Shown here in pieces: positions 17,578 to 56,281 of a DNA stretch of 64,000 bases. The DNA comes from a phage. The DNA lies in the NCBI GenBank assembly GCA_012813795.1, contig GCA_012813795.1_4087.1, one strand, 5' to 3'. The notes below the pieces were generated by a model, which saw only the letters and a list, made by a program, of their open reading frames with translations, searched no databases and was not told the DNA's origin. Positions within the stretch are counted from its first letter, which is position 1. Every line of letters begins with the position of its first letter. Both the position numbers and the translations under genes were made by a program.

Positions 17578-18012
17578 GATTCGTTTCCTTATTACCAGGG
17601 GAAACCGTTTCCCCTCTCGATGTAAAACATTATACGCCAATTGAGATAGTTTGCAAGTACTTTTTAAAAATAGTTTTCAGTACTCAATACTTATATAATA
17701 GATACACTTATGCACCCGGTGGGCTAGTGAGCTATCTCTCAATGAATATATAATAGCAAAATGGCTGACCGAAGTCAACCACTTTTTTCATTTATTTTTT
17801 AGCTTTTAGAATCGCCGCCTTTCGCGTCATGCCTTGCTTGATGTACTCCTTTACTTTCGCTTTACGTGCTTTCGCTTTATCTGCTTTCGTTTTAGGAGTA
17901 CTGTAAATTAAACCGTTAGGATTCATTTAAATCACCATAAAGAATAGATATGTTACTAACAATACCGCGATCAATGCACCGCCCAGGGCCGAACTGTAAT
18001 AAGCTAATGATT

Positions 18013-47436: not shown

Positions 47437-47820
47437 TTAACCTCGTTTCTTACGTTTAATGTTATTGTGAATTTCATAAAAGAAAGGAACAATAGCAGTA
47501 CAGATTAAATTATACATAAGAATAATCATGAACAATAACCCGAATATTGAAGAAAACACTAATCCAATAATGCACAGTACTGGTTCACCAATTGAAGTGA
47601 TTCCAATCCCGAATACGTATACAATCCATGTGAAGATAGTGGTTACTAAGCAAATGATATATCCAACATGGAAGAAGCACTTAGATTCGTAGTCGGATTC
47701 AATATCCTCATACACATCTTCGACGAACTTTACACAAAAGAACTTTCCAATGTATATTAATGCACCTATTGTTAGACATGCACTTAGGATATTAAGAATA
47801 ACATATATTGTTGTGTACAT
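47437..47820 (-). CDS. small multi-pass membrane protein (cluster member 6)
   Basis: 127 aa, hydrophobic, basic C-terminus. Confidence 0.55.
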   Translation of the reverse strand: MYTTIYVILNILSACLTIGALIYIGKFFCVKFVEDVYEDIESDYESKCFFHVGYIICLVTTIFTWIVYVFGIGITSIGEPVLCIIGLVFSSIFGLLFMIILMYNLICTAIVPFFYEIHNNIKRKKRG

Positions 47821-48140
47821 TATACCCTCTTATCTTTTTGTTTACGATGGAAATTTGATACCAAAGAACATAACTTTCCAATATAACTACAGAATGCTGC
47901 GAATACACACAGTCCTGCAAATAATGTACACAATGACATATTCAAATCATTATCAGGTGGATTGAATATAAGCAGTACTACCCATAATGTACTAAGCAAT
48001 GTAAAAGCTACATTACCAGCAGCAGCATTTTTACACTGCTTTGCATAGAAGTCAAATGGTTTTAGTGCAAAGAGAAAACCAATCCAGCAAACCCAAAAGT
48101 AGAATGCACTTACTGTGAAAAGAATCAATTCAATCTTCAT
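47820..48140 (-). CDS. small multi-pass membrane protein (cluster member 5)
   Basis: 106 aa, hydrophobic. Confidence 0.55.
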   Translation of the reverse strand: MKIELILFTVSAFYFWVCWIGFLFALKPFDFYAKQCKNAAAGNVAFTLLSTLWVVLLIFNPPDNDLNMSLCTLFAGLCVFAAFCSYIGKLCSLVSNFHRKQKDKRV

Positions 48141-48141
48141 A

Positions 48142-48477
48142 TTATTTCCTGTGATCTGGGATAGAGTTTCGTAGTTTAACTACAAATGGATACAAAAGCA
48201 CACCAATGTAAACAATAGTCGATATCCAGTAAAAACCCAAGGAAATGATTTCACCATTAGAACGTTTACCAGTACTGATAATTCCGTAATGGATGAATGG
48301 CATCACAGTCGATGACCAAAACCAGCAGTGAAGTTTAACACTCATCAGATGATTATCGATGAATTCACCGATTGGACGTTTAAAGAACCACATCAAGAAA
48401 TAAAACCCAGCGGAAATGATGTAGTAAATTGTACTTACTTTCAAGTACCACGGTAGTAAACTGATAAAGTACTCCAT
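48142..48477 (-). CDS. small multi-pass membrane protein (cluster member 4)
   Basis: Trimmed to Met MEYFISLLPWYLK at 48477 so that it abuts the upstream gene (TAATG overlap). Confidence 0.5.
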   Translation of the reverse strand: MEYFISLLPWYLKVSTIYYIISAGFYFLMWFFKRPIGEFIDNHLMSVKLHCWFWSSTVMPFIHYGIISTGKRSNGEIISLGFYWISTIVYIGVLLYPFVVKLRNSIPDHRK

Positions 48478-48830
48478 TATGCCTCCGGTATTTTGTTGCG
48501 TGCAAATAACATTTTTTTCCACACAATATTCGATAGAATTACAATTAGTGTTGGAATACATATCATAACAAAGGTACATAGCATAAAGTTAAGATTATCA
48601 CCGTGACCTAATCCTATGACTGTAAGAACTGCACCCATAGTATACGTGATTGAGGTTGCAATTACAACACTTTCATAGTACTCTGAATTATTAATCTTGT
48701 AGTAAATTGGACGTTTGAAATACCATCCAATGAAGTTTAGAACCATCAAAAACGGATATAAGATAATGAGTACATAGTTCAGTGTACTAGCAATATCACT
48801 GGTTGTCAACCATTTAATAACCTCTTGCAT
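48477..48830 (-). CDS. small multi-pass membrane protein (cluster member 3)
   Basis: 117 aa, hydrophobic. Confidence 0.55.
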   Translation of the reverse strand: MQEVIKWLTTSDIASTLNYVLIILYPFLMVLNFIGWYFKRPIYYKINNSEYYESVVIATSITYTMGAVLTVIGLGHGDNLNFMLCTFVMICIPTLIVILSNIVWKKMLFARNKIPEA

Positions 48831-49192
48831 TAGTAATCTCCACGAATTTTATCTCGACCTACAATGAGTAGACGGATTAAGTATATTGCAATCCAAATAA
48901 TTAGACCCAAGAACACAACGTATTGTGTGATTGATTCTAAGTGTGTATTTGTACAATATATAACATGTGTCAGAATTCCAAATAGAATAAATCCACCTTG
49001 AATGATACTATACATAACAAAAGCACTGTTATCATATGAGTATAGTTCAAATACTACTTTCTTTTTAAAATACCAAAGTACTACAACTAGTAAATGATAA
49101 AATAAAAAACCAATCATGTAAATCAAAGTAATACTAAGCATCGTATCAGATGAAAAAAAATCAACCATATAAACCTCATCGTGTAAAGTCAA
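48830..49192 (-). CDS. small multi-pass membrane protein (cluster member 2)
   Basis: 120 aa, hydrophobic. Confidence 0.55.
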   Translation of the reverse strand: MTLHDEVYMVDFFSSDTMLSITLIYMIGFLFYHLLVVVLWYFKKKVVFELYSYDNSAFVMYSIIQGGFILFGILTHVIYCTNTHLESITQYVVFLGLIIWIAIYLIRLLIVGRDKIRGDY

Positions 49193-49397
49193 TGAATGTT
49201 GATAGTAGTACCATGTATACAGACACTACAGTAATTAAAACAATAATTTTTAAACCCAGTGGTGCTTCTTGAGGATTATACTCCTTTTCAGTATCAATAT
49301 CAAGTGTATGAAACCATCTATAAACTTTAACTAAAACGACAATCATGTTAATACATGAATATAATAACATGACCTTATCGATGTTATGTGTTATCAA
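49176..49397 (-). CDS. small membrane protein (cluster member 1)
   Basis: 73 aa, hydrophobic. Confidence 0.5.
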   Translation of the reverse strand: MITHNIDKVMLLYSCINMIVVLVKVYRWFHTLDIDTEKEYNPQEAPLGLKIIVLITVVSVYMVLLSTFIDFTR

Positions 49398-50168
49398 TTA
49401 ATTTTTCTCCAGGAACAAGTTTTCACATTGCTCTTCCCAATCGTATGGGTTGTTGTTGTATACTGCTGAAATCAACAGTGGCATACGCAGTGAAGGTGAA
49501 CGAAGTGAATCTTCGTGCTTCAACATCCAGTTCAGGATTGCTTTACTACCATTACTGTTAATACCCTTAGATTCCAGAATGTTGGTCTGATTCATCACGT
49601 TCTCAATGTGAATCATGATATCGCTTTTGGTCTGGATCTGTAAGTCAACGTATACAGAGCGAGACATAAGAGCAGCATAGTGAGCAGACATTTTAGTTTT
49701 AGCTTTAGCATTCAGTGCTAAATCTTTGTTAGTAATGAATACGATGCGACCATTAAAATCAAAGCTGTTAGGGATACCGTTGCTGCTCAGATACTTCGAG
49801 CTAGTCATATAAGAAACAGTACGCTTGCCACTATCCAGTACTGCTTTGAGCAGGTTCATACCGTCTTCTGAATCAAAGATGCTGTCCATATCATCCAGTA
49901 CTAACACGTTGGTGCTATGACGATTCTTGTACAGAACTTCGTACAGAGCCAGAGTTGTCATTTTACCACTGATGGTAGCTACATTCCATTCTGCTGCGTC
50001 ATGAGCTTTCTGGAGGCGTTTAGACAGGGTGTAAGTCTTGCCAACACCAGGAGCACCACTGACAACCATACTTTTTACAGTACTGCTATCGTCGAGCAAA
50101 CACTCAAGAGCAACCATCATGGAGTTGAAGTTTTTCTGGATTTGAATGCTACGGGCTTCTCTGGTCAT
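49398..50168 (-). CDS. P-loop NTPase (AAA-like ATPase)
   Basis: Walker A GAPGVGKT and Walker B-like VLVLDDMD; 256 aa. Confidence 0.7.
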   Translation of the reverse strand: MTREARSIQIQKNFNSMMVALECLLDDSSTVKSMVVSGAPGVGKTYTLSKRLQKAHDAAEWNVATISGKMTTLALYEVLYKNRHSTNVLVLDDMDSIFDSEDGMNLLKAVLDSGKRTVSYMTSSKYLSSNGIPNSFDFNGRIVFITNKDLALNAKAKTKMSAHYAALMSRSVYVDLQIQTKSDIMIHIENVMNQTNILESKGINSNGSKAILNWMLKHEDSLRSPSLRMPLLISAVYNNNPYDWEEQCENLFLEKN

Positions 50169-50189
50169 TTCGTTATCCTCATCAGTTGA

Positions 50190-50229
50190 TGAAATAATTA
50201 TAACAAAAAGGGCCGACCGAAGTCAACCC
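50190..50229 (-). terminator. fused terminator-promoter module (minus RNA hairpin GGGUUGAC-UUCG-GUCGGCCC, U-run, then -10 TATAAT)
   Basis: Hairpin 50210-50229 just 3' of gene 50236..52155; TTGACT in the 5' arm sits 17 nt before gTTATAAT, upstream of ATG 50168. Confidence 0.6.
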
Positions 50230-50235
50230 TTTTGT

Positions 50236-52155
50236 TTAGTTTTGTTTCACCCCACCCCATTTTTCATAGATGGCAATAATTTTATCTATGTTGTTTGGTG
50301 TAGTTGTTTCAGTATACCCGTCTGGCATTTCTTGTTTAGTTAAAACACCTTTACCAAATCGTTTCTTACATTCTTTTTCAGCCTGTTTACAATCACCATC
50401 AGTATTAAAGAAGAATGTATGTGATGATACAACTTCAAATTTACAGCTTTTATTTTGGCTTTTATGTCGAGTACCTTTATTTTTTTCTATACCATATTTT
50501 ATTGCAATAGGGATGTCACCATCTTTAATTATATTAATATAAGCATATTGTTGGGTATATCCAACTTCATGTGAGTGTCCACTTTTACGGTCAACATGTG
50601 CATACGGTGTTGTAAAAAATTCACCATATTCGGGATGAATTATACACACATTAGTTGCTGTGTTAATATATTCTACTTTAGAATAATCATACAAATCACC
50701 ATGTACTTCTTTGGCTTTTTTAATGAAATCTTCTTTATTTTTAAATCGTAATCTACAGAATGGGTGTTGTCCCCCTTTTAAGTGGTGGTAAGGGGATGTG
50801 TGATATTCTCCATATTCTGGGTGGATAATACATACATGGTCATCAATACCAATATATTCTACTTTCGAATAATCATACAAATCACCATGTACTTCTTTGG
50901 CTTTTTTAATGAAATCTTCAGTGCACATTCGGGCTAAATCACTCCTTGATTTTACCCCACGAATTGGACAACCTTGCCCTGATAAATGAGATGATGGTGT
51001 TTGCCAAAATTCACCATACATAGGATCGATGATACATATTTTAGTATTACTGTTAATATATTCTACTTTCGAATAATCATACAAATCACCATGTACTTCT
51101 TTGGCTTTTTTAATGAAATCCAAAGTCGTTCCAGTCCTTTTGTTTTTTAATAATACTTTCGCACGTTTTGGATTATTGGCACCGTTTAAATGATTATTTG
51201 GTGTTTGCCAAAATTCACCATACATAGGATCGATGATACATATTTTAGTATTATTGTTAATATATTCTACTTTAGAATAATCATACAAATCACCATGTAC
51301 TTCTTTGGCTTTTTTAATGAAATCTTTTAATGTTAATTTTACATTTTTAGTTACAATATGCAAATTACATCCAGTTCTAGATAATAAATGATTAACAGGT
51401 GTAATTTCAAATTCACCATATTCATTATGAATCAATGTTACTTTTGTTCGGTAATCAACATAATTTATTTTTGAATAATCATATGTGTTTTTGAATTTCT
51501 CTTTAGATCTTTGTATAAATTCTTCTCTAGAAAGTTTTTGTTTTTCAGTTGTCTTTATTCTACCAGCTTTTGGATGTCCTTGTCCCTTCACATGACATTC
51601 TGGTGTTTGCTTAAATTCGCCAAATTCTGGATGAATTATTAAGACTTTAGTTTTGTAATCAACATAATTTATTTTTGAATAATCATATATGTTTCCATGT
51701 GTTTTTAATGCACGTTCTAAAAACATTTCCTTTGAAATTTTATTTTTTATATTTTTTTCTTTTAATTTATCCAAACCATGTTTTGGATGACCTACTCCGT
51801 TAAAATGATCTCCAACCAAAATCCAATGTTCACCATATACAGGATGAATGATACAAACTTTATTTTTGGAATTTACATAGTTTACTTTTGAATAATCATA
51901 CAAATCACCATGTACTTCACTAAATTTTTTCAATACACTTTCTTGTGTTAATTTTTTATTCTTCTTTCTGGATGGATTGTTTGAACCGTTCAAATGGTTA
52001 CCTGGAAGCATCCAAAATTCTTCATTACGTTCAATATCAATTATGCATATTTTTTGGGCGTGGTTTGTATATTCAACTTTAGAATAATCATACATGTCTC
52101 CATGTATTTTTTTAAATTCTGTAATAATACTTTCGGTTGACCACTTTTTACGCAT
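50236..52155 (-). CDS. repeat protein: eight tandem ~60-aa modules (HGDLYDYSKVEY...C.IIHPEYGEF...P..HL.G)
   Basis: 639 aa; modules 5-8 nearly identical even at nucleotide level; function not recognised with confidence. Confidence 0.65.
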   Translation of the reverse strand: MRKKWSTESIITEFKKIHGDMYDYSKVEYTNHAQKICIIDIERNEEFWMLPGNHLNGSNNPSRKKNKKLTQESVLKKFSEVHGDLYDYSKVNYVNSKNKVCIIHPVYGEHWILVGDHFNGVGHPKHGLDKLKEKNIKNKISKEMFLERALKTHGNIYDYSKINYVDYKTKVLIIHPEFGEFKQTPECHVKGQGHPKAGRIKTTEKQKLSREEFIQRSKEKFKNTYDYSKINYVDYRTKVTLIHNEYGEFEITPVNHLLSRTGCNLHIVTKNVKLTLKDFIKKAKEVHGDLYDYSKVEYINNNTKICIIDPMYGEFWQTPNNHLNGANNPKRAKVLLKNKRTGTTLDFIKKAKEVHGDLYDYSKVEYINSNTKICIIDPMYGEFWQTPSSHLSGQGCPIRGVKSRSDLARMCTEDFIKKAKEVHGDLYDYSKVEYIGIDDHVCIIHPEYGEYHTSPYHHLKGGQHPFCRLRFKNKEDFIKKAKEVHGDLYDYSKVEYINTATNVCIIHPEYGEFFTTPYAHVDRKSGHSHEVGYTQQYAYINIIKDGDIPIAIKYGIEKNKGTRHKSQNKSCKFEVVSSHTFFFNTDGDCKQAEKECKKRFGKGVLTKQEMPDGYTETTTPNNIDKIIAIYEKWGGVKQN

Positions 52156-52384
52156 TACTTAAAACTCCTTTCCAGTACTGAACCCGTCCAGCACCATTAA
52201 TCTTAGCCTGAATCTTATCTTTTTCGACAAGACCTTCTTTGTAATCTATGGACGTATTATCGCACTGAATTACATCTAAGTCAAGTACTTCTTGTGTACT
52301 TAATGAAGTATTGTCTGCAATTTGTTGTAAAGTAATTATATCAGTACCGAAGAATTCTGCTAAACGTATAAAAGATAGTTTCAT
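52148..52384 (-). CDS. hypothetical small protein
   Basis: 78-aa ORF behind a terminator-promoter module. Confidence 0.5.
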   Translation of the reverse strand: MKLSFIRLAEFFGTDIITLQQIADNTSLSTQEVLDLDVIQCDNTSIDYKEGLVEKDKIQAKINGAGRVQYWKGVLSNA

Positions 52385-52404
52385 GTATTACCTCTTGAGT
52401 TGAT

Positions 52405-52444
52405 GAAATGATTATAGCAAAAAGGGCTGACCGAAGTCAACCCC
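52405..52444 (-). terminator. fused terminator-promoter module (UUCG-tetraloop hairpin, U-run, TGcTATAAT)
   Basis: gggctgaccgaagtcaacccc at 52424-52444; extended -10 at 52411-52418 on the minus strand. Confidence 0.6.
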
Positions 52445-52449
52445 TTATA

Positions 52450-52677
52450 TCATTTATTGTTGTATTCATACCAACACAGTTTAATATTATATACCAAATC
52501 CTCATAATCACTACATTGCACTATCCATGAATATTTTTCGTCAAATGTATATTTGGGTGAATTAATCATCCATCTTATAGATGCTTTTGTTTTATCAGGA
52601 TTAAATTTATACGTTTCGCGTGACTTGTATGAATCAAGCTTCGCAATCGCATATTTTTTGAATTCTTCATCATTCAT
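52450..52677 (-). CDS. hypothetical small protein
   Basis: 75-aa ORF; start overlaps the denV stop. Confidence 0.5.
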
Positions 52678-53111
52678 TGTATCATATCAACATAATATAT
52701 AGGTAGCTCAACATCAGTAAACTTATACCACTTAGACTTCATCTGAAGCTTCTCAATCAAACGCTCGCGTGATGTTTTAATCTCGGACTCCGATGGTACG
52801 TAGTCATTACAAAACTCAGCAGGGAAGCCGCTAATGTCGTTTACTTCAGTGTTTTGAATCTTCATACCACGACGCAAACATTCGTTAACAATATCAATAT
52901 GACGCTTCTGTAAGTACAGTAACTTGTCGTAGAAGAATGTTACATGACCTGAACCTAACAGATAAGTACTGTTAATTTTGAAATCACGTACACGCTTACG
53001 TGCTTGAACATGTTTTTGTACAGCACCAAATACACGTGGGAGTTCACGGTATTCAGCCATCAGGTGTTGGTCGGCAAGTTCGTTAACGTGTACTAAGTTA
53101 ATGCGTGTCAT
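52674..53111 (-). CDS. denV: endonuclease V (pyrimidine-dimer DNA glycosylase / AP lyase), T4 DenV homologue
   Basis: N-terminus [30 protein letters not shown]...KRVRDFKI.....[12 protein letters not shown] matches T4 endonuclease V from memory, including the catalytic N-terminal Thr and the AEYRE Glu. Confidence 0.9.
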
Positions 53112-53134: not shown

Positions 53135-53171
53135 AAATGATTATAGCAAAAAGGGCTGACCGAAGTCAACC
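53135..53171 (-). terminator. fused terminator-promoter module upstream of denV
   Basis: gggctgaccgaagtcaaccc hairpin at 53153-53171 with attatagc -10 at 53140-53147. Confidence 0.6.
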
Positions 53172-56244: not shown

Positions 56245-56281
56245 AGTATTATAGCAAAAAAGGCTGACCGAAGTCAACCTC
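56245..56281 (-). terminator. fused terminator-promoter module
   Basis: aggctgaccgaagtcaacct hairpin at 56261-56280 plus TATAAT-like box. Confidence 0.55.

What the first reader, a model, noticed from the sequence alone, without database searches (positions are those of the whole stretch)
50236..52155. 639-aa protein built from eight tandem ~60-aa modules
The modules share (F/L)IKKAKEVHGDLYDYSKVEYIN...K(I/V)CIIHPEYGEF..(T/S)P..HL.G; the last four are almost identical at nucleotide level (repeated gaatataatcatacaaatcaccatgtacttctttggcttttttaatgaaatc), so expansion is recent and the locus is recombination-prone. The conserved His/Cys/Asp positions could bind metal or nucleic acid. I could not assign the family confidently.
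Basis: seen in the sequence. Interest (0 to 1): 0.6.

Follow-up and report, generated by a model that had tools for sequence, protein, structure and literature searches.

The report
Phage homing-type nuclease with eight-module DNA reader
This gene of a jumbo E. coli phage encodes an ordinary kind of selfish phage nuclease (a T5orf172/GIY-YIG cutting domain behind a string of eight small DNA-binding modules); its one unusual trait is that every module has lost the four zinc-binding residues typical of the family.

Summary
ORF 50236-52155 (-) encodes 639 aa: eight ~60-aa modules spaced 62-71 aa apart, then a ~105-aa C-terminal domain. The window comes from an Asteriusvirus jumbo coliphage; the closest record is phage A4.

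The family can be assigned. The modules are homologous to the DUF4379/DUF723/CapR treble-clef zinc-finger modules. The C-terminal domain is a divergent T5orf172 (GIY-YIG superfamily) nuclease with all family-invariant residues present. Barth et al. 2023 (PMC10448857) already described this architecture, repeated zinc-finger DNA-binding modules plus T5orf172, for putative phage homing endonucleases, including recombination between the repeats.

Two points go beyond the literature I found.
- All eight modules lack the Cys-His-Cys-Cys tetrad found in 91% of the 919 modules compared. They carry Asp..Arg or His-rich substitutes instead.
- The "recent expansion" reading is only partly right. Modules 5-8 share a 66-nt core that is identical apart from one synonymous site. 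The following 72 nt are saturated at synonymous sites, except between modules 5 and 6. This points to short-tract gene conversion or module shuffling, not simple duplication.

The same slot in related phages holds different nuclease genes. I judge this a new member of a known kind, of modest interest.

The parts
50236..52155 (-). Complete ORF, 639 aa: eight DNA-binding modules followed by a T5orf172-like nuclease domain
51961..52143 (-). Module 1 (aa 5-65); residues at the four zinc-ligand columns are D-R-N-R
51772..51951 (-). Module 2 (aa 69-128); ligand columns H-Y-H-H
51559..51738 (-). Module 3 (aa 140-199); ligand columns H-F-H-A
51352..51534 (-). Module 4 (aa 208-268); ligand columns H-Y-C-H
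51157..51336 (-). Module 5 (aa 274-333); ligand columns D-Y-N-R
50953..51132 (-). Module 6 (aa 342-401); ligand columns D-Y-C-R; a fairly recent duplicate of module 5
50749..50928 (-). Module 7 (aa 410-469); ligand columns H-Y-H-C
50560..50742 (-). Module 8 (aa 472-532); ligand columns H-Y-H-gap; homologous to the last module of A4_225 and slurp01_127
50239..50547 (-). C-terminal T5orf172-like (GIY-YIG fold) nuclease domain, aa ~537-639. Family-invariant residues present: Y539, K553, G555, R563, F583, C589, E593, D612, G613, E616, T617
50665..50730 (-). 66-nt homogenised core, copy in module 8 (encodes DFIKKAKEVHGDLYDYSKVEYI)
50851..50916 (-). 66-nt homogenised core, copy in module 7
51055..51120 (-). 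66-nt homogenised core, copy in module 6
51259..51324 (-). 66-nt homogenised core, copy in module 5
52165..52170 (-). Shine-Dalgarno AAGGAG, 9 nt upstream of the ATG. The start overlaps the end of the upstream ORF by 8 nt (ATGCGTAA)
   Evidence: read directly from the sequence
52148..52384 (-). Conserved 78-aa upstream ORF in the same transcription unit, with no family match; present in A4, slurp01, 121Q and vB_Ec-M-J
52411..52446 (-). Upstream stem-loop/promoter cassette (TTGACT, 18-nt spacer, TG-extended TATAAT; 11 of 12 consensus positions)
50197..50233 (-). Downstream copy of the same cassette: terminator-like stem-loop 50206-50233 plus a promoter for the next gene
50719..52151 (-). Segment with no DNA homology to the closest relative A4. 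Homology stops at 52152, the start codon, and resumes at 50718, the start of module 8. A4 has a different 1.2-kb N-terminal region here

Best explanation
The gene encodes a free-standing, homing-type site-specific DNA endonuclease of the T5orf172 branch of the GIY-YIG superfamily.

What is shown. The C-terminal ~105 aa form the nuclease domain, with every family-invariant residue intact. The N-terminal 530 aa are a 'beads on a string' array of eight small modules (helix, YDYSKVEY loop, beta-hairpin, short helix). These modules are homologous to the DUF4379/DUF723/CapR treble-clef zinc-finger DNA-binding modules.

What is inferred. Each module reads a few base pairs, using the hypervariable positions around the hairpin and the conserved His49. 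Together the array specifies a long target. The nuclease cuts near that target in co-infecting relatives that carry a different allele of this slot, and repair copies the gene and its flanks across.

All eight modules have replaced the Cys-His-Cys-Cys zinc tetrad. Modules 1, 5 and 6 carry Asp-(Tyr/Arg)-x-Arg and modules 2, 3, 4, 7 and 8 carry His-(Tyr/Phe)-(His/Cys)-(His/Cys/Ala). I infer that the fold is held without the canonical zinc site, by an Asp-Arg salt bridge in the first type and perhaps by a three-ligand metal site in the second.

The array evolves by recombination within its own repeats: one whole-module duplication (5 to 6), plus short-tract gene conversion or crossover shuffling confined to a 66-nt core of modules 5-8. 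Separately, the whole DNA-binding part has been exchanged relative to the nearest phage.
For: Nuclease domain:
- tblastn gives 40% identity over 98% of the domain to ICP1 gp130 'tcgB putative homing endonuclease' (E 2e-18). That protein passes Pfam's T5orf172 cut-off and also carries a CapR domain.
- The exhaustive search finds 510 cluster representatives at E <= 0.001. In the rows listed, the domain lies at or within about 50 residues of the C-terminus.
- 10 of 34 aligned members hit T5orf172 and MUG113 (best E 1.2e-5).
- All 11 invariant columns are kept in the window protein.

Modules:
- 7775 homologues were found; the best has E 1e-285 and 47% identity. They carry 5-11 modules each and hit DUF4379 (74 bits against a cut-off of 24.5), DUF723 (66.8 against 20.9) and CapR.
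- The same array type is joined to T5orf172, DUF559 (annotated by a source as very-short-patch-repair endonuclease) or GIY-YIG domains in different proteins.
- PHROG 681 'endonuclease' matches at 3e-94.
- The module-pair model has pLDDT 92. It matches viral 'T5 Orf172 DNA-binding', 'GIY-YIG nuclease' and 'treble clef zinc finger' proteins at E down to 2e-16.

Literature:
- T5orf172 putative homing endonucleases with repeated CapR/DUF723/DUF4379 zinc-finger modules, and recombination between those repeats, are described in PMC10448857.
- CapR binds DNA, and a mutant with all four cysteines changed to serine does not (PMC8096241).
- A T5orf172 domain has glutamate-dependent nuclease activity in Odn (as cited in PMC10448857).

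Mobility signature:
- The slot between the conserved 78-aa ORF and the AAA-ATPase gene holds different nuclease-like genes in A4/slurp01, 121Q, vB_Ec-M-J and Turkey3.
- DNA homology to A4 breaks exactly at the start codon and resumes at module 8.

Expression signals: an AAGGAG ribosome-binding site, an 8-nt overlap with the upstream ORF, and flanking promoter/terminator cassettes.
Against: - The window protein itself reaches no Pfam threshold for T5orf172, DUF4379, DUF723 or CapR. Membership rests on transitive homology and on fold.
- The CapR experiment shows that the cysteines are needed for DNA binding, and this protein has none of the tetrads. DNA binding by its modules is therefore unproven.
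- I found no relative with an empty slot and I propose no target site.
- Homing has not been demonstrated for this T5orf172 subfamily in anything I read. The ICP1 genes are called 'putative'.
- The C-terminal domain is retained at this slot in A4, slurp01 and this phage. That would also fit a resident, domesticated gene.
Confidence: 0.62

Rival explanations
1. A domesticated targeting nuclease, not a selfish homing gene. The phage would use the array-plus-T5orf172 protein against a competitor: a co-infecting phage, a satellite, or host DNA. ICP1 does this with Odn. The swapped DNA-binding part would then reflect an arms race with that target.
For: The C-terminal domain and last module are retained at the same slot in A4, slurp01 and this phage, while the N-terminal part differs. 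Odn is a T5orf172 nuclease re-targeted by exchange of its DNA-binding domain (PMC10448857). No relative with an empty slot was seen.
Against: No satellite or other specific target is known here. Variable occupancy of one slot by unrelated nuclease genes (CapR type in 121Q, a gene annotated HNH in vB_Ec-M-J) is the pattern typical of competing homing genes. Inter-phage marker exclusion and homing are mechanistically the same act.
Confidence: 0.2
2. A decaying homing endonuclease. Loss of all zinc tetrads would mean that the DNA-binding modules no longer fold or bind, and the gene is a remnant drifting toward loss.
For: 0 of 8 modules keep the CHCC tetrad, against 835 of 919 (91%) in the set compared. 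Cys-to-Ser changes abolish DNA binding in CapR. Degeneration after fixation is the usual fate of homing genes (abstract of PMC13405050, listed).
Against: - The 639-codon ORF is intact, with a ribosome-binding site and translational coupling.
- All non-ligand scaffold positions remain conserved, including F6, H14, Y18, D19, Y20, S21, Y25, G40, H49 and G52.
- The Asp/Tyr/Arg replacement is coordinated and recurs in about 10 unrelated proteins among the 120 homologues compared.
- The nuclease-domain invariants are intact.
- AF2 folds the Asp-type and His-type modules with pLDDT 92. The alignment used does include zinc-containing homologues.
Confidence: 0.1
3. A CapR-like DNA-binding regulator (repressor) whose nuclease domain is inactive or secondary.
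For: CapR is a repressor derived from these modules (PMC8096241). I-TevI doubles as a repressor (discussion of PMC10448857). The gene sits just downstream of a repeated promoter cassette.
Against: CapR-type regulators lack the nuclease domain. Here that domain is present with all invariant residues. Eight modules are far more than an operator-binding repressor would need.
Confidence: 0.05

Closest known systems
T5orf172-family putative homing endonucleases of ICP1 and other phages (e.g. ICP1 gp130/tcgB, phi92 gp222), as surveyed by Barth, Dunham & Seed 2023 (PMC10448857)
   Same: A C-terminal T5orf172 nuclease domain: 40% identity to the gp130 domain over 98% of the query. N-terminal repeated CapR/DUF723/DUF4379-type modules. 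Free-standing gene in a phage genome. Nucleotide repeats with signs of intragenic recombination and of domain swapping between alleles.
   Different: The window protein has eight modules. gp130 gave one CapR match and phi92 gp222 gave four. None of its modules keeps the zinc tetrad. The window protein is too divergent to reach Pfam thresholds itself. It lies next to an AAA-ATPase gene, not next to the terminase, ribonucleotide reductase or capsid genes stressed in that paper.
CapR of Vibrio cholerae PLE satellites (Netter et al. 2021, PMC8096241)
   Same: The same module superfamily, which gives the only experimental evidence that such a module binds specific DNA.
   Different: CapR is a repressor without a nuclease domain. 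Its DNA binding needs the four cysteines, which all eight modules here lack.
Multi-module DUF4379/DUF723 arrays fused to other nucleases (P0002 and P0038 with a DUF559-type domain, P0067 with GIY-YIG, P0004 and P0023 with T5orf172)
   Same: 47% identity over ~80% of the protein to the best hit. The array length of 5-11 modules is the same, as is the period of ~65 aa. P0004, P0017, P0071 and P0094 carry the same Asp-Tyr-x-Arg zinc-less modules.
   Different: Those proteins have different C-terminal nuclease types or a different T5orf172 subfamily; hhalign of the A1 profile against the P0023 C-terminus is not significant. The His-type ligand sets were seen only in the window protein among the 919 modules.
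[quoted passage not shown]
   Different: The domain order is reversed, with the nuclease N-terminal in I-TevI/Seg. Their DNA-binding parts are unrelated (NUMOD/helix-turn-helix, from my own knowledge). They have no tandem array.

Membership tests
T5orf172 (PF10544) / GIY-YIG superfamily nuclease domain | Match to the Pfam T5orf172 or MUG113 model above the gathering score | tested here: not met
   The window protein and its isolated C-terminal domain give no T5orf172 hit even at E<=10. Homologues do hit: ICP1 gp130 at 21.2 bits and phi92 gp222 at 20.2 bits against a cut-off of 20, and 10 of 34 aligned family members hit at E<0.1, best 1.2e-5. Membership is therefore transitive.
T5orf172 (PF10544) / GIY-YIG superfamily nuclease domain | GIY-YIG alpha/beta fold | tested here: met
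T5orf172 (PF10544) / GIY-YIG superfamily nuclease domain | Conserved motif residues: Tyr in strand 1, [KY]-x-G in strand 2, Arg at the start of helix 1, and an acidic metal ligand | tested here: met
   Y539, K553-Y-G555, R563, E593 and D612-G-x-T-E616-T are invariant in 34 family members and present in the window protein. Which Glu corresponds to I-TevI Glu75 was not settled by superposition.
T5orf172 (PF10544) / GIY-YIG superfamily nuclease domain | Metal-dependent DNA cleavage | not testable with these tools
   Needs biochemistry.
DUF4379 / DUF723 / CapR treble-clef zinc-finger DNA-binding modules | Sequence homology to family members | tested here: met
   E 1e-285 to P0001, which hits DUF4379 (74 bits), DUF723 (66.8 bits) and CapR. 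Each window module scores E 1e-25 to 1e-35 against a module HMM that was seeded partly with the window modules. A canonical module aligns to all eight by tblastn at E 1e-12 to 1e-24. Direct Pfam matches for the window protein are absent.
DUF4379 / DUF723 / CapR treble-clef zinc-finger DNA-binding modules | Four zinc ligands (C-x2-H ... C-x2-C; CxxC...CxC in CapR) | tested here: not met
   The window ligand sets are DRNR, HYHH, HFHA, HYCH, DYNR, DYCR, HYHC and HYH-. In the full set, 835 of 919 modules are CHCC. The window modules are therefore homologues of the family, but zinc fingers in the defining sense is not supported.
DUF4379 / DUF723 / CapR treble-clef zinc-finger DNA-binding modules | Treble-clef-like fold (beta-hairpin knuckle plus helix) | tested here: inconclusive
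DUF4379 / DUF723 / CapR treble-clef zinc-finger DNA-binding modules | Sequence-specific DNA binding | not testable with these tools
   Shown only for CapR (PMC8096241).
Free-standing homing endonuclease gene | Patchy or variable occupancy of one genomic slot among close relatives, with homology breakpoints at the gene borders | tested here: met
   Flanks are 94-98% identical to A4, slurp01 and 121Q, but the slot holds different genes. The breakpoints against A4 are at 52152 and 50718.
Free-standing homing endonuclease gene | Cleavage of the allele that lacks the gene, and biased inheritance in crosses | not testable with these tools
   No empty-slot relative was seen among those inspected. Needs experiments.

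The most novel reading that the evidence does not exclude
The eight modules are a zinc-independent derivative of a treble-clef zinc-finger DNA-binding module. In modules 1, 5 and 6 an Asp-Arg pair takes the place of the metal; in modules 2, 3, 4, 7 and 8 a His-rich set does. The modules would still read DNA specifically. In addition, the array would be diversified by a built-in recombination hotspot: a 66-nt core kept identical in four modules lets the variable, specificity-determining halves be shuffled. That would make a naturally reprogrammable, metal-free, modular DNA reader attached to a nuclease.
Probability: 0.35. Interest if true: 0.5.

Novelty: new member of a known kind. Interest (0 to 1): 0.3.

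Why it matters
For annotation, this 'hypothetical protein' slot in Asteriusvirus jumbo phages can be labelled a T5orf172-type homing-like endonuclease hotspot. This allele has no close relative in the phage, viral-contig, genome or metagenome collections searched.

The wider interest is limited but real in three ways.
- The protein is a clean natural example of a zinc-finger-derived module that has lost every zinc ligand while keeping its scaffold residues. This bears on how small metal-stabilised domains become metal-free.
- The contrast between a homogenised 66-nt core and synonymous-site-saturated variable halves is direct sequence evidence for segmental concerted evolution or module shuffling inside a DNA-binding array.
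- Long modular arrays coupled to a small nuclease are of interest as programmable DNA-targeting scaffolds, if a recognition code exists.

None of this changes current understanding of phage homing endonucleases.

Tried and rejected
- Tandem Repeats Finder on 49500-53000 found only a trivial 22-nt repeat, because the modules are too diverged.
- Direct Pfam scans of the protein, of single modules and of the C-terminal domain gave only sub-threshold, unrelated hits: BDV_P40, DUF3903, Colicin_D. I treat these as chance matches.
- NCBIfam gave 'tandem-95 repeat' at 32.5 bits against a cut-off of 90; rejected.
- PDB sequence searches with the protein and with the profiles A1 and A2 found nothing significant.
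- The word-indexed search with the C-terminal domain found a single protein. The exhaustive search was needed to find the family.
- hhalign of the C-terminal profile against the T5orf172 domain of P0023 was not significant (probability 1.7%). The window domain belongs to a different T5orf172 subfamily from P0023.
- I looked for a donor or sister allele of the 66-nt core. An exact 30-mer from it gave 0 hits in viral contigs, genome contigs and metagenome contigs. Megablast of the gene against phages matched only the 3' end. There is no paralogue in the 64-kb window.
- tblastn with His-type module 7 found nothing above 53% identity in phages.
- I considered simple recent tandem duplication of modules 5-8 and rejected it on synonymous-site divergence.
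- I considered purifying selection alone as the cause of the conserved core and rejected it. The core is identical at synonymous sites too, while adjacent synonymous sites are saturated.
Full report
**1. What is there**

The ORF at 50236..52155 on the minus strand exists as described: ATG start, 639 aa. It has an AAGGAG ribosome-binding site 9 nt upstream. Its start overlaps the stop of a conserved 78-aa ORF by 8 nt, ATGCGTAA.

A profile built from module sequences finds eight modules, at aa 5-65, 69-128, 140-199, 208-268, 274-333, 342-401, 410-469 and 472-532. Each scores E 1e-25 to 1e-35. A canonical module taken from an unrelated homologue aligns to all eight by tblastn at E 1e-12 to 1e-24, and to nothing else in the 64-kb window. 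The DNA repeat finder reports an eight-copy family with spacings of 186-213 nt. Tandem Repeats Finder misses the array because the copies are too diverged.

The corrected 50-mer occurs exactly four times, against 0 expected.

**2. Source and neighbourhood**

The flanks are 94-98% identical to Asteriusvirus jumbo coliphages: A4, slurp01, PBECO4, 121Q and phAPEC6. The gene lies between the conserved 78-aa ORF and a 256-aa AAA-type ATPase gene. A T4 endonuclease V homologue lies further upstream (annotations).

The unit made of the 78-aa ORF and this gene is bracketed by two copies of a combined stem-loop/promoter cassette, AAAAGGGTTGACTTCGGTCRGCCCTTTTTGYTATAAT. The cassette occurs six times on the minus strand of the window, against 0 expected.

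**3. The slot is polymorphic**

- In A4 and slurp01 the same slot holds a 565-aa and a 628-aa protein. Each has an unrelated Cys-rich N-terminal region of roughly 340 aa, then two or three modules, then the same C-terminal domain.
- In 121Q the slot holds a 487-aa protein with three CapR-type matches, plus an extra small ORF.
- In vB_Ec-M-J it holds a 371-aa gene annotated as an HNH endonuclease.
- In Turkey3 the region is larger and includes a gene annotated 'DUF4379 domain-containing protein'.

DNA homology between the window and A4 stops at 52152, the start codon. It resumes at 50718, the beginning of module 8, and continues through the C-terminal domain into the next gene. Megablast of the gene against 50,697 phage records matches only its 3' end. 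So modules 1-7 are a replacement relative to the nearest relative.

**4. The modules**

A search of 5.8 billion proteins returned 7775 homologues. The best has E 1e-285 and 47% identity over about 80% of the query. The best 120 carry 5-11 modules each, so eight is ordinary.

These homologues hit Pfam DUF4379 ('probable treble clef zinc finger', 74 bits against a cut-off of 24.5), DUF723 (66.8 against 20.9) and CapR. Their C-termini are T5orf172, DUF559 (which one source annotates as a very-short-patch-repair endonuclease), GIY-YIG or something else. PHROGs places the window protein in phrog_681 'endonuclease' at 3e-94. Module arrays occur in 583 phage records.

The window protein itself reaches no Pfam threshold. 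One likely reason is that the four zinc-ligand columns are C, H, C, C in 835 of the 919 modules compared, but in none of the eight window modules. Those read DRNR, HYHH, HFHA, HYCH, DYNR, DYCR, HYHC and HYH-.

The Asp-Tyr/Phe-x-Arg replacement is coordinated. It recurs in about ten other proteins, such as P0004, P0017, P0071 and P0094. The His-rich sets were seen only in the window protein within that set, although the last modules of A4_225 and slurp01_127 are of the same type (sequences).

All non-ligand scaffold positions remain conserved: F6, H14, Y18, D19, Y20, S21, Y25, G40, H49 and G52. Family-wide hypervariable positions are 28-29, 45, 47-48, 51 and 53, around the hairpin and the conserved His. 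I infer that these are the specificity positions.

**5. The C-terminal domain**

The word-indexed search found one relative. The exhaustive search found 510 cluster representatives at E <= 0.001. In the rows listed, the domain lies at or within about 50 residues of the C-terminus.

In an alignment of 34 members, Y539, K553, G555, R563, F583, C589, E593, D612, G613, E616 and T617 are invariant, and all are present here. Ten of the 34 members hit Pfam T5orf172 and MUG113.

By tblastn the domain is 40% identical over 98% of its length to ICP1 gp130, annotated 'tcgB putative homing endonuclease'. That protein passes the T5orf172 cut-off and also carries a CapR domain.

**6. What is already known**

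Barth, Dunham and Seed (PMC10448857) describe T5orf172 as a GIY-YIG subfamily. They report that most T5orf172 putative homing endonucleases carry one or several CapR/DUF723/DUF4379-type zinc-finger modules arranged as 'beads on a string'. They also report that nucleotide repeats in these genes recombine, within a gene and between genes.

Netter et al. (PMC8096241) showed that CapR binds specific DNA and that mutating its four cysteines abolishes binding.

The architecture found here is therefore a known kind.

**7. The repeat history**

Modules 5-8 share a 66-nt core, GATTTC...TATATT, which encodes DFIKKAKEVHGDLYDYSKVEYI. The four copies are identical except for one synonymous TCT/TCG site.

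In the next 72 nt, the proportion of synonymous differences is 0.51-0.99 among 5/6, 7 and 8, which is effectively saturated. It is only 0.12 between modules 5 and 6 (identity matrices).

Selection on the protein cannot explain identity at synonymous sites right next to saturation. The two parts of each module must have different histories. The simplest reading is one fairly recent whole-module duplication (5 to 6), plus short-tract gene conversion, or crossover-mediated shuffling, confined to the core.

I found no donor. A 30-mer of the core has no exact match in the viral, genome or metagenome contig collections, and there is no paralogue in the window. The rest of this phage's genome was not available to me.

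**8. Mechanism and its status**

Shown:
- homology of both parts to their families;
- the fold of the nuclease domain;
- intact invariant residues;
- loss of the zinc tetrads;
- the polymorphic slot with homology breakpoints at the gene borders;
- mosaic divergence within the repeats.

Inferred:
- the array reads a long DNA target;
- the nuclease cuts alleles of related phages at or near this slot;
- repair spreads the gene;
- the modules fold without canonical zinc sites.

The main alternatives are a domesticated targeting nuclease like Odn, a decaying element, or a regulator. The intact ORF, the conserved scaffold and catalytic residues, and the recurrent coordinated Asp/Arg substitution argue against decay.

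**9. Verdict**

The finding is real, and its family can be assigned. It is a new and quite divergent member of a known class of phage nucleases.

Two features seem worth a short follow-up: the complete loss of zinc ligands across all eight modules, and the sharply bounded homogenised core. I did not find either feature described in the literature I could search. That search covers open-access papers only.

Noticed in passing
window 17756-17778, 50204-50226, 52418-52440, 53147-53169, 56255-56277, 60538-60560 (all - strand): A combined terminator-like stem-loop and sigma-70-type promoter cassette, AAAAGGGTTGACTTCGGTCRGCCCTTTTTGYTATAAT. The -35 hexamer lies inside the stem, the spacer is 18 nt, and the -10 is TG-extended. 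It is repeated six times in intergenic positions, against 0 expected. It resembles the promoter-stem-loop cassettes proposed to mediate module shuffling in T4-type phages; that comparison is from my memory and was not checked.
   Followed up: partly
loci L001 (A4), L002 (slurp01), L003 (121Q), L006 (vB_Ec-M-J) and L007 (Turkey3), at the slot equivalent to window 50236-52155: The same slot holds different nuclease-like genes in each relative: a Cys-rich N-terminus plus 2-3 modules plus the same T5orf172-like domain; a protein with three CapR matches; a gene annotated HNH with no Pfam hit; and a gene annotated DUF4379 plus two extra ORFs. Most are deposited as 'hypothetical protein', and phAPEC6 calls its copy 'exonuclease ABC C subunit'.
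   Followed up: partly
window 47820-49397 (-): A run of five small, strongly hydrophobic ORFs of 73-145 aa. They are closely packed (several overlap or abut) and look like paralogous multi-pass membrane proteins.
   Followed up: no
window 49398-50168 (-): A 256-aa P-loop/AAA-type ATPase immediately downstream (GAPGVGKT; weak AAA family hits). Related records annotate it inconsistently as 'clamp loader of DNA polymerase', 'transcriptional regulator FleQ' or hypothetical.
   Followed up: partly
window 52674-53111 (-): A T4 endonuclease V (DenV)-like pyrimidine-dimer DNA glycosylase gene, as annotated in the relatives. Phage A4 also labels an unrelated 73-aa ORF (A4_227) 'endonuclease V', which is probably an annotation slip.
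   Followed up: no
PDB 6sga_Fd and 6yxx_E2 (fold search): The only solved structures that resemble the phage module, and only weakly, are Trypanosoma brucei mitoribosome assembly factors. One is deposited as a 'DUF4379 domain-containing protein'. No phage or homing-endonuclease example of this module appears to have been solved.
   Followed up: no
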